From the IMG/VR virus record IMGVR_UViG_2541047806_000003, positions 1 through 55,921 of that record: DNA of 55,921 bases; one strand, given 5' to 3'. The DNA comes from a virus (taxonomy: Duplodnaviria > Heunggongvirae > Uroviricota > Caudoviricetes). Below the pieces are notes generated by a model. The model saw only the letters and a list, made by a program, of their open reading frames with translations, was not told the DNA's origin and searched no databases. The position numbers and the translations under genes were made by a program. The first letter of the stretch is position 1. Every line of letters starts with the position of its first letter. Shown here one piece after another: positions 1,514 through 55,909 of the stretch.

Positions 1514-1537
1514 AATTTGGTCGCAATTTGGTACACA
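1514..1537. repeat. Left copy of 24-bp prophage-end repeat AATTTGGTCGCAATTTGGTACACA (candidate integrase arm-type/att site)
   Basis: 22/24 identical to 55886-55909 immediately upstream of integrase start; contains AATTTGGT sub-repeats. Confidence 0.45.
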
Positions 1538-1564
1538 AAAAAGAAACGAGGCGTTAGCCTCGTT
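1536..1564 (-). terminator. Rho-independent terminator ending the late (tail) operon
   Basis: 8-bp GC-rich stem AACGAGGC/GCCTCGTT with loop GTTA, followed on minus strand by TCTTTTTTGTGT. Confidence 0.6.
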
Positions 1565-1611
1565 TCGCGCGGCGATGTTTTCAACATCACCATGCTATCA
1601 CTGCCGCATCA

Positions 1612-1896
1612 TTAAGCCCATGCGCGGACGCCTGGATCTGGAACAATGAAAGGCTCAAGCTGAGAAATATCAACATCGTCACCAGTTATACGCACGTTGA
1701 CGTAATAACCTTTTTTCCCAATAAGTACAGGTGTCTCGCTTTCTGGATCGTCGAATACAAGGACAAAACCGATATCATCAATAAACACGGTTGACCAATT
1801 GGCATCCAGCAAGCCGCTATTAATCACAATGTCGTTGTATTGCTGTTTGTCAGTAAATTGCAAGCTAACGTCTTTCATGTTAACCACCTTAAACAA
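1612..1896 (-). CDS. Hypothetical protein downstream of tail fibre (possible fibre assembly/accessory protein)
   Basis: 94 aa ORF, start overlaps stop of tail-fibre gene (translational coupling); last gene before terminator. Confidence 0.45.
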   Translation of the reverse strand: MFKVVNMKDVSLQFTDKQQYNDIVINSGLLDANWSTVFIDDIGFVLVFDDPESETPVLIGKKGYYVNVRITGDDVDISQLEPFIVPDPGVRAWA

Positions 1897-53853: not shown

Positions 53854-54510
53854 ATGAGTGAATCAAAAGCAATCGGTGTGATTAGCCATCGCACTAACCC
53901 TGAATGCTACCCATCGTTTGAAGTATCGACATGCAGGGAAGAATATAATTTTGGATCATGTTATTTGGTTGGTGTTCGCGCTGATCGCGACACTTATTCT
54001 GTTATGGCGGCAAGCTGGAAGTTTGATAAATATGCCAATTTATCTAATAAAGATGATGATGGCATGAATAAAGAAAGTGAAATCATTAACGAATTAATCG
54101 AAGATGAGCGGCATGATTGCGATACGCCAGAAGTTACGGAATGGATGGCAGGAGAAAAGCCTCCATGCGGAGTATGGCTTGAGCTTCTAGATCCTGTCGA
54201 TGGTCGGAAATATGTTATTCTGAAATACAAGTATATAAGTGATCGCCTTGCTCTTTTTGTAGAAATGGATGCGCCTGATTTTGAACAAGCCGGGGAATGG
54301 AAGCATTTCGCTCATAAGTTGTATGTAGATCCGAAAGAAAAAACACTGGCTGAAATTGCGTTTGCACTTGCTACTAAGGTTATCGGCGAAGATGCTGCAA
54401 AAGAAATTGATTTTAACCGCGACAACGAATTTTCGTGCGATTATCGCAATATGGCGCAAGCTATTATAGACGGATGTATAGGACACGTTGAATATACGGG
54501 TGGTGAATAA
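53854..54510 (+). CDS. Hypothetical protein
   Basis: 218 aa from ATG 53854 (SD GAGGA). Confidence 0.45.
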   Translation: MSESKAIGVISHRTNPECYPSFEVSTCREEYNFGSCYLVGVRADRDTYSVMAASWKFDKYANLSNKDDDGMNKESEIINELIEDERHDCDTPEVTEWMAGEKPPCGVWLELLDPVDGRKYVILKYKYISDRLALFVEMDAPDFEQAGEWKHFAHKLYVDPKEKTLAEIAFALATKVIGEDAAKEIDFNRDNEFSCDYRNMAQAIIDGCIGHVEYTGGE

Positions 54511-54728
54511 TGGATAAGATCGGGACAATACTTATTAATCGTGAGCAAGTGCAAAAAATGTTAGGCGGGCTTAGTAAGTCCGCCTTTTTTAAGCTCGTTA
54601 AAAAATGGAAAGATTCTGGAACTCCTTTTCCTGAACCTGTCAAGGGGATGCCAGCATTAAAGCGCGGCGGATCTCTTTACCGTTATCAGGACGTTATTTC
54701 ATTTTGTAAATCAATGGGCTTCATGTAG
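54510..54728 (+). CDS. AlpA-like HTH regulator / excisionase candidate
   Basis: 72 aa, HTH, adjacent and convergent to integrase. Confidence 0.55.
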   Translation: MDKIGTILINREQVQKMLGGLSKSAFFKLVKKWKDSGTPFPEPVKGMPALKRGGSLYRYQDVISFCKSMGFM

Positions 54729-55885
54729 TAATCAGCCAGTTTATTCATCGCCTCGATTTGTTCCCTCACATAGTCATACTGATCATATATAGCCATCATT
54801 CCCGCCAGTTTATGACCTAAAACCTTTTCGGCTACGTGTGGCGCAATGCCAAGCGCTGAAAGGTTTGTCCTTACAGTGCGGCGCAGATCGTGACATGACC
54901 ACGGCTCGCCGCCCATCCTTAGCATTAAATCCCTTGCAGCTGTTTTCGGCACGCTCCTGTCTACCGCTTCATTCCTTCCAGAAAGCACGGGAACGAAGAT
55001 AAAATTAAAGCCGTGCAAATCCATAGCCTCACGCAATAAATCAACGCTAACTGCGGATAAACCGCGTTTAAACTCGTTTCTGTTCTTACTCAATGCGCCA
55101 GGAACGGTCCACACACAATTATCAAGATCAAAATGCTCGCGTTTTGCGTTTGTTAGTTCGCTTGTTCTGCATCCGGTGAATATAATCAGCTTCATCAATA
55201 TCTGATTTAGCCGCGCCATTTTTGAACTGTCTATAATGCTGATTAGATGGTGAATTTCTTGTATTGATAAAACTCGCTTCCTTTGCGCCGGGTTTTTCCC
55301 TACATCCTTCACGCGTAGCAACGATATGTCGTCACGCTCCACGCGGCGGCGGCGCATGGCATATTTTATAACCGCCTTCATCCTGTTTAAGACTATTCCG
55401 GCCTGAACGGGTGCGCCACCATTAGCAACCTTTCTAAAAATCCCCTCCCACATTATGGCGTCCATATCATCGACGATATAGCTACCGCATGGTCTGACAA
55501 TATGCTTACTTAGCATCGCCTCGACTTGCTTATAGTTGACCATGTTTCTTGCCTGCGGTGATTCCATGTACTCCCTAACAATATCTTCAATCGTTGCCCG
55601 TGTAGTAACGCGGGACAAGTGCATTCTTTTTACGATCGATGGATCTCGCCCTGAGTTTAATACCTCCTTATGCTCCGCCACCGCCGCGCGGGCTTCTTTG
55701 AGTGTTATTTCTCCGTAAGTGCCAATCTTCATCCGTCGCGGCTTGCCGTTGAATCGGTAGCGATACTGAAAAGATATAACGCCGCGCGGGCTTATCCTGG
55801 CAGACAATCCGCCCGCGTCCGGGACTTCTTCCGGGCCGTCATATGGCTTGCCGTGGATGTTTCGTAATTTGGTATCTGTAAGCAT
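54686..55885 (-). CDS. int: Tyrosine integrase (P4-type)
   Basis: C-terminal catalytic motifs HDLRRT and LGH...Y; start taken as MLTDTKLRN at 55885; ORF runs to window edge. Confidence 0.85.
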   Translation of the reverse strand: MLTDTKLRNIHGKPYDGPEEVPDAGGLSARISPRGVISFQYRYRFNGKPRRMKIGTYGEITLKEARAAVAEHKEVLNSGRDPSIVKRMHLSRVTTRATIEDIVREYMESPQARNMVNYKQVEAMLSKHIVRPCGSYIVDDMDAIMWEGIFRKVANGGAPVQAGIVLNRMKAVIKYAMRRRRVERDDISLLRVKDVGKNPAQRKRVLSIQEIHHLISIIDSSKMARLNQILMKLIIFTGCRTSELTNAKREHFDLDNCVWTVPGALSKNRNEFKRGLSAVSVDLLREAMDLHGFNFIFVPVLSGRNEAVDRSVPKTAARDLMLRMGGEPWSCHDLRRTVRTNLSALGIAPHVAEKVLGHKLAGMMAIYDQYDYVREQIEAMNKLADYYMKPIDLQNEITS

Positions 55886-55909
55886 AATTTGGTCACTATT
55901 TGGTACACA
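55886..55909. repeat. Right copy of 24-bp prophage-end repeat AATTTGGTCACTATTTGGTACACA (candidate integrase arm-type/att site)
   Basis: 22/24 identical to 1514-1537; extra AATTTGGTA copy at 55867-55875. Confidence 0.45.

What the first reader, a model, noticed from the sequence alone, without database searches (positions are those of the whole stretch)
1514..55909. Atypical module order: late genes co-linear with the repressor/N operon, replication module divergent and ending at the integrase
In lambda the integrase lies at the end of the pL operon and Q and late genes follow the replication genes on the pR side. Here the leftward operon (N-like, Erf, SSB, nin genes, Q-like) continues into lysis and structural genes, while the rightward operon carries replication genes, ninB and an AlpA-like gene and ends at the integrase. 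This mosaic rearrangement implies a different early-to-late switch.
Basis: inference. Interest (0 to 1): 0.35.

Follow-up and report, generated by a model that had tools for sequence, protein, structure and literature searches.

The report
Known mEp021-type prophage gene order
The unusual gene order is real, but it is the normal, conserved layout of an already described family of E. coli gut phages (the mEp021 / mEpimmI group), here sitting as one intact prophage in the host gene abgT, so it is not a new rearrangement.

Summary
From about 1.6 to 45.5 kb every core gene is on the minus strand: N-like, Erf, SSB, methylases, NinG, RusA, Q, lysis, packaging, head and tail. The cI-like repressor is co-oriented at the head of that run. 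A divergent plus-strand run (46.9-54.7 kb) carries replication genes, NinB and a small HTH gene. It meets a convergent integrase at the window's right edge.

It is one element. Window 1-1446 is the 5' part of abgT, and the att core lies at 1429-1444. A near-identical prophage in E. coli GN04592 is flanked by the two abgT pieces. Free phages (mEp021, mEp010/013/044, MagusPhagus) and 45 IMG/VR contigs show the same order.

This is the published mEpimmI group (Negrete-Mendez 2025), so the layout is a family trait, not a local mosaic event.

Relative to lambda, P22 and HK97 it equals one inversion of the early region against the nin-Q-late-att backbone, with the integrase pointing inward.

The switch parts are lambda-like:
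- an N-like protein;
- three boxA/boxB sites at the published positions;
- a lambda-family Q;
- a conserved -10 / AACAAT / terminator block just upstream of the holin.

The wiring differs but the kind of switch does not. Interest is low.

The parts
1..1446 (+). Host abgT, 5' part. Its last codons and stop are supplied by the phage side of the att core.
   Evidence: 99.8% match to abgT-prophage junctions in E. coli GN04592 and GN05505, annotated 'abgT, missing C-terminus'.
1429..1444 (.). attL core TATCCACTTATCTTTT (left prophage boundary).
   Evidence: The same 16-17 bp occurs in attP of the free phage MagusPhagus and in attR of GN04592. The arms on each side match the window's fibre side and the integrase side respectively.
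1514..1537 (+). Two arm-type repeats ATTTGGT(C/A), probable integrase arm-binding sites.
   Evidence: The same repeats occur next to the integrase start in GN04592 attR and in MagusPhagus attP. Their role is inferred.
1612..27185 (-). Structural and packaging genes: fibre, J, I, K, L, M, tape measure, tube, head genes, major capsid protein, portal, TerL, TerS. Four plus-strand moron islands interrupt them.
   Evidence: PHROG hits; tblastn to lambda and HK97 tail genes M-L-K-I-J; collinear with mEp021.
28869..30019 (-). Lysis cassette: holin, endolysin, Rz-like spanin.
   Evidence: PHROG 20, 7 and 13.
30044..30062 (-). Intrinsic terminator directly upstream of the holin (equivalent to mEp021 t5 / TERM_5).
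   Evidence: Terminator scan. Stem invariant in 45 of 45 relatives. t5 is stated to be experimentally demonstrated in mEp021 (PMC11893012, Fig. 7 legend).
30077..30118 (-). Candidate late (pR'-like) promoter: TTGTAG-17-TAAAAT-N7-AACAAT.
   Evidence: TAAAAT and CTAACAATGCGAAA are invariant in 45 of 45 loci. Same layout as lambda, P22 and HK97 pR' (TAAATT-N6-AACGAT, then a terminator). The -35 is not conserved, so the function is inferred.
30125..36233 (-). Variable block of about 25 small ORFs between Q and the late promoter.
   Evidence: ORF list. Poorly conserved against mEp021. The Q-to-holin gap is 3.1-6.8 kb in relatives.
36234..36956 (-). Q-like late antiterminator.
   Evidence: PF03589, E 5e-30. 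35% identity to lambda Q, P22 gp23 and HK97 Q over 238 residues.
37141..38234 (-). RusA and NinG (nin-region genes).
   Evidence: PF05866 and PF05766.
38364..38396 (-). nutR2-like site: boxA GCTCTTTAAAAA plus a boxB-like hairpin.
   Evidence: Exact boxA match; hairpin. The position downstream of the methyltransferase is as published for mEp021. Present in 40 of 40 relatives.
38494..40603 (-). DNA methyltransferases and neighbours.
   Evidence: PHROG 757; PF05869 Dam.
44056..45104 (-). Erf recombinase and SSB.
   Evidence: PF04404 and PF00436.
45251..45541 (-). N-like antiterminator (Gp17 homologue) with an arginine-rich motif.
   Evidence: PHROG 271, E 1e-13. 93% identity to mEp021 gp17. R17, R19, R20 and R24 present (one search compared).
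45836..45847 (-). nutR1-like boxA GCACTTTAAAAA.
   Evidence: Lies between the early promoter and the N-like gene, as published.
45890..45918 (-). Candidate early leftward promoter TTGACT-17-TATATT.
   Evidence: Promoter scan, 10 of 12 matches. Consensus match only.
46019..46036 (-). Terminator after the repressor gene (equivalent to mEp021 t1).
   Evidence: annotated as TERM_1 in MH706966.
46042..46689 (-). CI-like repressor (immunity group I).
   Evidence: HTH_3 + Peptidase_S24. 95% identity to mEp021 Rep021, 34-40% to lambda cI and P22 c2.
46854..46886 (+). nutL-like site: boxA GCTCTTTAAAAA plus hairpin UCGCU-GCGA-AGCGA.
46995..53662 (+). Rightward early operon: wHTH, replication initiator, Zn-ribbon/T5orf172 endonuclease, exonuclease-like protein, DnaB helicase, MarR-like protein, NinB.
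   Evidence: tblastn to P22 and HK97 gp18/O, DnaB and NinB on the lambdoid strand relative to cI.
54510..54728 (+). Small HTH protein, candidate excisionase (AlpA-like). It contains a terminator-like hairpin at 54563-54585.
   Evidence: Pfam Phage_AlpA only at E 0.2. Model pLDDT 82, best fold match a MerR-type winged helix at E 0.22. Hairpin.
54686..55921 (-). Tyrosine integrase with a P4-type arm-binding domain, transcribed inward from attR. Type II (abgT) integrase of the family.
   Evidence: PF13356 + PF22022 + PF00589. 95% identity to the GN04592 integrase, 49% to the mEp021 integrase.

Best explanation
The window holds one intact prophage of the mEpimmI (mEp021-like) group of temperate E. 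coli siphoviruses, integrated in the 3' end of abgT. Its gene order is the fixed plan of that family.

Formally, it is the lambda plan with the early region (recombination genes, N, cI, replication genes, ninB) turned end-for-end relative to the nin-Q-lysis-structural-att backbone. In addition, a P4-type integrase is read inward from att.

Proposed working (steps marked shown or inferred):
1. Two divergent early transcription units flank cI (shown by strand and order; promoters inferred).
2. The leftward unit starts with a nut site and the N-like gene. It runs through Erf, SSB, the methylases, a second nut site, NinG and RusA to Q.
3. The rightward unit starts with a nut site. It runs through the replication genes and NinB to a small HTH protein that probably acts as excisionase, ending head-on against int (excisionase role inferred).
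4. The N-like protein with host Nus factors lets RNA polymerase pass the internal terminators (published for mEp021; inferred here from 93% identity and the three conserved boxA sites).
5. Q then acts at a conserved promoter-like block about 50 nt upstream of a terminator in front of the holin. This gives terminator-resistant late transcription through lysis, packaging, head and tail genes (inferred from the resemblance to P22 and HK97 pR'-tR' and from invariance in 45 relatives).

The switch is therefore of the lambda N/Q kind. The differences are that N and Q sit in the same operon, and that the Q gene is separated from its presumed target by 3-7 kb of variable small genes.
For: Identity and single-element status:
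- 85-88% nucleotide identity, collinear along the whole length, with phage isolates mEp010/013/044/554/515/021 (Escherichia phage records in the INPHARED collection).
- MagusPhagus carries int-attP-fibre contiguously.
- The GN04592 prophage is flanked by split abgT. GN04592 and GN05505 are listed among the abgT / type II integrase prophages of the family (Table 2 of PMC11893012).
- All 45 IMG/VR contigs have the order cI, N-like, Erf, SSB, Dam, NinG, RusA, Q, holin, TerS, TerL on one strand, with wHTH and the replication initiator opposite.

Relation to lambdoids: Erf, cI, the replication initiator, DnaB and NinB keep the lambdoid strand relation to cI. Dam, NinG, RusA, Q, the lysis genes and tail genes M-L-K-I-J are flipped.

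Switch parts:
- PHROG 271 N-like.
- boxA at 46854(+), 45847(-) and 38396(-), which are the published nutL, nutR1 and nutR2 positions.
- Q matches PF03589 and is 35% identical to lambda Q.
- TAAAAT-N7-AACAAT plus terminator is invariant in 45 of 45 loci and parallel to lambda, P22 and HK97 pR'.
- t5 is reported as a demonstrated terminator.
Against: - No transcription data were available. The 2023 paper on Gp17 antitermination is not held.
- The -35 of the candidate late promoter is not conserved; there are two sequence variants.
- No Q-binding element can be defined.
- No promoter lies directly after Q as it does in lambda.
- The excisionase assignment is statistically weak.
- No Cro-like gene was found in the canonical position. 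The first rightward gene resembles the N-terminal domain of O-type initiators, and it co-varies with the initiator rather than with cI. The lysis-lysogeny circuit may therefore differ from lambda's in ways not seen here.
- The inversion is only a formal description. Head genes are not lambda-like, so common descent by a single inversion is not shown.
Confidence: 0.85

Rival explanations
1. The arrangement is an assembly join, or two adjacent prophage remnants (for example a late-gene remnant next to an early-gene remnant), and not one phage.
For: None found. The only hint is that the window is cut at gene boundaries and lacks attR.
Against: - Phage isolates are collinear over the whole window.
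- MagusPhagus spans the int-attP-fibre junction in one record.
- Complete genomes show one insertion between the two halves of abgT.
- The paper reports a PCR across the integration region from CsCl-purified mEp021 virion DNA.
- One att core and one integrase are present, and GC is uniform at about 46%.
Confidence: 0.01
2. A canonical lambdoid prophage underwent a strain-specific chromosomal inversion after integration, giving a defective element with scrambled order.
For: Formally, one inversion converts the lambda order into this one.
Against: - The same order is found in plaque-forming phages and in 45 independent viral contigs.
- Core ORFs are intact.
- The nut sites and the pre-holin block are conserved in the positions that fit this order.
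- Head and packaging genes are not lambda, P22 or HK97 homologues.
Confidence: 0.02
3. The early-to-late switch really differs. Because late genes are co-linear with the N operon, late expression comes mainly from N-type (Gp17) read-through from the early promoter across all terminators, including t5. The Q homologue is then accessory, or acts elsewhere.
For: - Co-linearity of the whole 44-kb minus-strand run.
- A second nut site part-way along the operon.
- No promoter-like gap directly after Q.
- A non-conserved -35 at the candidate late promoter.
- t5 is listed among the terminators studied in the Gp17 antitermination work.
Against: - Q is a core gene, 82-100% conserved.
- The -10 / AACAAT / terminator block has the specific lambda pR' geometry and is invariant while its flanks vary.
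- In lambda, N-modified read-through from pR also enters the late region yet does not replace Q. Co-linearity alone therefore does not imply a new switch (established lambda biology).
Confidence: 0.12

Closest known systems
mEpimmI group phages (mEp021 MH706966; mEp010, mEp013, mEp044, mEp515, mEp554; MagusPhagus; E. coli prophages such as those of GN04592 and GN05505)
   Same: - Whole-length collinearity at 85-100% nucleotide identity.
- The same repressor (95-100% identity).
- The same N-like Gp17 and three nut sites.
- The same Q and the same pre-holin block.
- The abgT integration site with the type II integrase.
- About 46% GC and about 54 kb.
   Different: Only cassette-level variation:
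- a different integrase type from mEp021 (49% identity);
- a different wHTH and initiator N-terminal half (43% identity);
- J and fibre variants;
- a longer variable block between Q and the holin (6.2 kb against 2.0 kb in mEp021);
- different morons.
Lambdoid phages (lambda, P22, HK97)
   Same: - A CI-like repressor flanked by divergent early operons.
- N-type antitermination with boxA/boxB sites.
- A lambda-family Q.
- Erf, NinB, NinG, RusA, Dam and DnaB homologues (42-56% identity).
- A pR'-tR'-like block before the holin.
- Lambda-type tail tip genes M-L-K-I-J.
- Prophage ends formed by int and the tail fibres.
   Different: - The early region is inverted relative to the nin-Q-late backbone. 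Q and the late genes therefore follow the N/recombination operon, and the replication genes run toward int.
- The nin region is split, with ninB on the replication arm.
- There are three nut sites instead of two.
- The Q gene lies 3-7 kb from its presumed promoter.
- int is a P4-type integrase read away from att and is not part of an early operon.
- No recognisable cro or cII was found.
- Head and packaging genes are unrelated.
- The group is described as non-lambdoid (PMC11893012).

Membership tests
mEpimmI (mEp021-like) phage group | Whole-genome nucleotide similarity and synteny with mEp021 and its relatives. | tested here: met
   85-88% identity and collinear with no rearrangement. Near-identical to the GN04592 prophage, which is listed in the group.
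mEpimmI (mEp021-like) phage group | Immunity-I CI-type repressor (Rep021), highly conserved across the group. | tested here: met
   HTH_3 + Peptidase_S24. 95% identity to mEp021 gp15.
mEpimmI (mEp021-like) phage group | Gp17 N-like antiterminator with a conserved arginine-rich motif, plus nutL, nutR1 and nutR2 at fixed positions. | tested here: met
   93% identity to gp17 with R17, R19, R20 and R24 present. boxA at 46854(+), 45847(-) and 38396(-). Activity was not tested.
mEpimmI (mEp021-like) phage group | Integration at ydaM, abgT or mppA, with the matching integrase type. | tested here: met
   abgT 3' end with att core 1429-1444. The integrase matches those of mEp010/013/044 and GN04592 (type II).
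Lambdoid phages (functional definition) | Lambda gene order: int-xis-recombination-N-cI-cro-replication-nin-Q-lysis-head-tail. This order allows viable hybrids. | tested here: not met
   Dam, NinG, RusA, Q, lysis and tail genes are on the opposite strand relative to cI, compared with lambda, P22 and HK97. The group is reported as non-lambdoid.
Lambdoid phages (functional definition) | N- and Q-type antitermination dependent on host Nus factors. | tested here: inconclusive
   Homologues and sites are present. Nus dependence is reported for the group in the literature. Function cannot be tested with these tools.
Lambdoid phages (functional definition) | A cro gene as the first gene of the operon divergent from cI. 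| tested here: not met
   The first rightward gene matches the N-terminal domain of O-type initiators. No other HTH ORF lies in the intergenic regions.
AlpA/excisionase family (for ORF 54510-54728) | A significant match to Phage_AlpA / HTH_17, or a winged-helix excisionase fold. | tested here: inconclusive
   PF05930 at E 0.2 and 12 bits against a cut-off of 21. No NCBIfam hit. Best fold hits are MerR-type winged helices at E 0.22 and TM 0.51. The position next to int fits.

The most novel reading that the evidence does not exclude
The family may run a regulatory circuit that differs from lambda's in more than wiring:
- it has no Cro in the canonical place;
- N and Q are in one operon;
- the Q gene is uncoupled from its target by a 3-7 kb variable block;
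- it carries a family-specific asymmetric 13-mer, CCATTTTGTAWAC.

The 13-mer occurs 13 times against 0.3 expected. It is conserved at syntenic intergenic positions in mEp021 and absent from lambda, P22 and HK97. It sits next to both early promoters, upstream of nutR2, upstream of dnaB, and at the head of each tail-gene segment that follows a reverse moron.

These sites could be dispersed repressor sites, like the stoperators of mycobacteriophage L5, or a dedicated promoter class that restarts transcription. As far as I could find, neither the late promoter nor this motif is described in the literature I could read.
Probability: 0.2. Interest if true: 0.5.

Novelty: already known. Interest (0 to 1): 0.15.

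Why it matters
The finding has little value as a discovery. The phage group, its genomes (in GenBank since 2018) and its conserved architecture are published, and near-identical prophages (GN04592, GN05505) are in the published set.

The useful residue is interpretive. The layout can be stated exactly as the lambda plan with the early region inverted, which explains why the family needs a third nut site on the long N-to-Q operon.

The analysis also points to three testable elements that the accessible paper does not describe:
- a candidate Q-dependent late promoter in front of the holin;
- a candidate excisionase at the end of the replication operon;
- a dispersed 13-mer motif.

These would help anyone dissecting the lysis-lysogeny circuit of a phage group reported to be as common in human gut samples as lambdoid phages.

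Tried and rejected
- Valencia-Toxqui 2023 (Arch Virol 168:92, Gp17 antitermination) could not be read because it is not held. Statements about nut and terminator function rest on the 2025 paper's summary.
- A genome-contig scan with the Q protein found no relative in species-representative genomes. Spread beyond E. coli was therefore not assessed.
- AlpA-like ORF: Pfam, NCBIfam and PHROGs gave no significant family. A homologue search returned only close, unnamed HTH proteins. The fold search gave only insignificant MerR-type hits.
- I considered that AACAAT upstream of t5 is the 5' arm of a boxB-like hairpin (ACAAU-GCGAA-AUUGU). I rejected this because the 3' arm varies (ATTGT, ACTGT, ACTAT, AGTGT) with no compensating change in the invariant 5' arm.
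- I considered that the 13-mer is a sigma-70 -35 element (TTGTAW). I rejected this because no consistent -10 lies 16-18 nt downstream (by inspection). Reading it as a -10 (TAWACT) gives no consistent -35 either.
- A literature search for the 13-mer found nothing relevant.
- I looked for a late promoter directly after Q, as in lambda. A small ORF follows Q immediately and leaves no gap.
- No tRNA genes are present.
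Full report
**What is in the window**

The ORF map and HMM scans give a simple picture.

Window 1-1446 is the 5' part of the host gene abgT.

From 1612 to 45541 all core genes are on the minus strand. In the direction of transcription they are:
- an N-like protein (45251-45541; PHROG 271, E 1e-13);
- Erf, SSB and an Abc-like small protein;
- several small ORFs;
- Dam and a second methyltransferase;
- NinG and RusA;
- Q (36234-36956; PF03589, E 5e-30);
- about 25 small ORFs;
- holin, endolysin and Rz (30019-28869);
- TerS, TerL, portal, head genes and the major capsid protein;
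- tail tube, tape measure, M, L, K, I, J and a fibre protein (3685-1889).

The CI-like repressor (46042-46689; HTH_3 + Peptidase_S24) is on the same strand, just upstream of this run, and is followed by a terminator (46036-46019).

The plus strand from 46995 to 54728 carries:
- a small winged-helix protein;
- a replication initiator (Lin1244_N; PHROG O-like);
- a Zn-ribbon/T5orf172 endonuclease;
- an exonuclease-like protein;
- DnaB, a MarR-like protein and NinB;
- an unknown protein and a 72-residue HTH protein.

The integrase (54686-55921; Arm-DNA-bind_3 + Phage_int_M + Phage_integrase) is on the minus strand. It is convergent with the last plus-strand ORF and overlaps it by 43 bp.

The integrase is not part of the rightward operon. 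'AlpA-like' is only weakly supported: PF05930 at E 0.2, and a fold match to MerR-type winged helices at E 0.22.

**One element, not a join**

Four lines of evidence agree.

1. The window is 85-88% identical to, and collinear over its whole length with, the phage isolates mEp010, mEp013, mEp044, mEp554, mEp515 and mEp021. A blastn comparison against mEp021 shows no rearrangement, only cassette replacements.

2. In E. coli GN04592 a near-identical prophage lies between abgT (5' 1443 bp) and a 99-bp abgT 3' fragment followed by ogt.

3. The free phage MagusPhagus carries int, 276 bp of attP and the tail fibre gene contiguously. Its attP equals the integrase-side arm of GN04592 attR, plus the core TATCCGCTTATCTTTT, plus the fibre-side arm of the window's attL. 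This puts the attL core at 1429-1444. Arm-type repeats ATTTGGT(C/A) occur on both arms.

4. Negrete-Mendez et al. 2025 (PMC11893012) also report a PCR across this junction from CsCl-purified mEp021 virion DNA.

**It is a known family**

Negrete-Mendez et al. 2025 (PMC11893012) describe the mEpimmI group as follows:
- 48 phages and prophages, of about 46% GC, with 'a conserved genome architecture';
- a CI-like repressor;
- the N-like Gp17 with three nut sites;
- four integrase types tied to ydaM, abgT and mppA.

GN04592 and GN05505, whose prophages match the window at 99.8% over the first 4 kb (abgT junction and fibre gene; the rest of the GN04592 prophage is 85-98% identical), are in their abgT / type II list.

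I extended this result. All 45 IMG/VR contigs that encode a close Q homologue have the order cI, N-like, Erf, SSB, Dam, NinG, RusA, Q, holin, TerS, TerL on one strand. Where the sequence reaches that far, the wHTH and initiator genes are on the other strand. About 29 of 5426 complete E. coli genomes carry at least 80% of the immunity region.

**Relation to lambda, P22 and HK97**

I ran tblastn with the window proteins against the three reference genomes.
- With cI as anchor, Erf, the initiator, DnaB and NinB keep the lambdoid strand relation.
- Dam, NinG, RusA, Q, Rz and endolysin, and the tail genes M-L-K-I-J are flipped.

In a circular map this equals one inversion of the early region (recombination genes, N, cI, replication genes, ninB) against the backbone nin'-Q-lysis-head-tail-att. 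One breakpoint falls between ninB and the Dam methylase, which are adjacent in HK97. The other falls between the recombination/ea genes and xis-int. After that formal inversion, only the integrase has the 'wrong' direction. It is also a different, P4-type integrase, and it is a swappable cassette within the family (49% identity to the mEp021 integrase).

This is a description, not a demonstrated history. The head and packaging genes have no lambda, P22 or HK97 homologues.

**The early-to-late switch**

The parts are lambda-like.

- N-like protein: it is 93% identical to mEp021 Gp17 and keeps the arginine-rich motif.
- Nut sites: boxA GCTCTTTAAAAA occurs exactly at 46854(+) and 38396(-), and with one mismatch at 45847(-). 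Each is followed by a small hairpin. These are the published nutL, nutR2 and nutR1 positions, and they are present in all 40 full-length relatives.
- Early promoter: a good sigma-70 match (TTGACT-17-TATATT, 45918-45890) lies between the cI terminator and nutR1.
- Q: it is 35% identical to lambda Q over 238 residues.

No promoter-sized gap follows Q. Instead, a block of about 105 bp in front of the holin is conserved while its flanks vary. It consists of TAAAAT, seven bases, AACAAT, about 15 bases, and then a GC-rich hairpin with a T run (30062-30044). TAAAAT, CTAACAATGCGAAA and the hairpin stem are invariant in 45 of 45 sequences, 29 of them distinct.

This is the geometry of lambda, P22 and HK97 pR'-tR': TAAATT, six bases, AACGAT, then a terminator 30-60 nt downstream in P22 and HK97. 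There AACGAT is the sigma-dependent pause element at which Q loads (established lambda biology). The mEp021 equivalent of the hairpin, t5, is stated to be an experimentally shown terminator.

There are caveats. The -35 is not conserved, and no transcription data were available.

In lambda the late genes are also downstream of an N-antiterminated early operon. Co-linearity therefore does not by itself imply a new kind of switch. What differs:
- N and Q share one operon, which fits the extra nut site part-way along it;
- the Q gene is 3.1-6.8 kb from its presumed target.

**Verdict**

The layout is already known as the architecture of the mEpimmI group. Interest is low.

**Side observations**

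- No Cro-like gene is present. The first rightward gene matches the N-terminal domain of O-type initiators. It is only 43% identical to its mEp021 counterpart, whereas cI is 95% identical. This suggests it belongs to the origin-recognition module.
- The most over-represented word in the window is CCATTTTGTAWAC, with 13 copies against 0.28 expected. It is mostly intergenic. It is conserved at syntenic sites in mEp021 (148 of 156 motif positions, 95%, against 87% for the flanks) and in the IMG/VR relatives. It is absent from lambda, P22 and HK97. Its role is unexplained.

Noticed in passing
window 11164-11176(-), 12757-12769(-), 15736-15748(-), 15765-15777(+), 23838-23850(+), 32321-32333(+), 38413-38425(-), 38480-38492(+), 41814-41826(-), 45920-45932(+), 46763-46775(+), 50737-50749(+), and 13148-13160(-), which is not conserved: An asymmetric 13-mer, CCATTTTGTAWAC (up to 1 mismatch), occurs 13 times against 0.28 expected, and its 10-mer core is the most frequent 10-mer in the window. 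Most copies are intergenic:
- next to both early promoters;
- flanking nutR2;
- upstream of dnaB;
- upstream of the tape measure, M and L genes, after each reverse moron island.

Some form inverted pairs 16 nt apart. The sites are conserved at syntenic positions in mEp021 (95% against 87% for the flanks) and in IMG/VR relatives. The motif is absent from lambda, P22 and HK97. It could be a dispersed operator (stoperator-like) or a promoter element, and no literature hit was found.
   Followed up: partly
window 46995-47252 (+) and intergenic 46690-46994: No Cro-like gene lies in the canonical position. The first gene divergent from cI matches the N-terminal winged-helix domain of O-type replication initiators (PHROG 4617, E 7e-22). 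It is only 43% identical to mEp021 gp14, while cI is 95% identical. It varies together with the N-terminal half of the adjacent initiator, so it looks like part of the origin-recognition module and not an immunity gene.
   Followed up: partly
window 54563-54585 (+): A strong terminator-like hairpin (10 pairs, then TTTTTT) lies inside the coding sequence of the small HTH ORF, over the conserved GGLSKSAFFKL motif. It is just before the convergent overlap with int. It might make expression of the putative excisionase depend on antitermination and protect int from head-on transcription.
   Followed up: no
window 30125-36233 (-): About 25 small ORFs (57-121 aa) fill the space between Q and the lysis cassette. 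The block is 2.0 kb in mEp021 and 3.1-6.8 kb in 43 IMG/VR relatives, and it is poorly conserved. The last two ORFs (30477-30299 and 30301-30125) look like paralogues. The first ORF after Q appears to start at GTG after an A7 tract, where GN04592 has an ATG-started ORF.
   Followed up: partly
window 48684-49595 (+): A Zn-ribbon (DUF4379 x3, CapR) plus T5orf172/GIY-YIG-like endonuclease gene sits between the replication initiator and the helicase. It has internal repeats, it is longer in mEp021, and it has a partial paralogue in the mEp021 tail region. It looks like a homing-endonuclease-type insert.
   Followed up: no
window 3826-4128, 11258-11965, 13013-13267, 15824-16868 (all +): Reverse-oriented moron islands interrupt the tail genes. 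They include a KilAC-domain antirepressor fragment (11717-11965) and a VasI/TagO-like putative lipoprotein (15824-16483; PF11319, E 1e-15) followed by a BamE-like small protein. The family paper reports Lpp-type superinfection-exclusion lipoproteins, but I did not check whether these are the same genes.
   Followed up: no
window 1-1446 and 1429-1446: Integration removes roughly the last 30 codons of abgT. AbgT here is 481 residues and ends at a TGA two bases past the att core, on the phage side of the junction. RefSeq annotation marks the gene as a pseudogene in GN04592.
   Followed up: partly
window 23662-25053 (-); L002 24771-26141: The portal protein (PHROG 146, E 9e-112) is named 'anti-CBASS protein Acb1 family protein' in the RefSeq annotation of GN04592. 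This is probably an annotation artefact.
   Followed up: no
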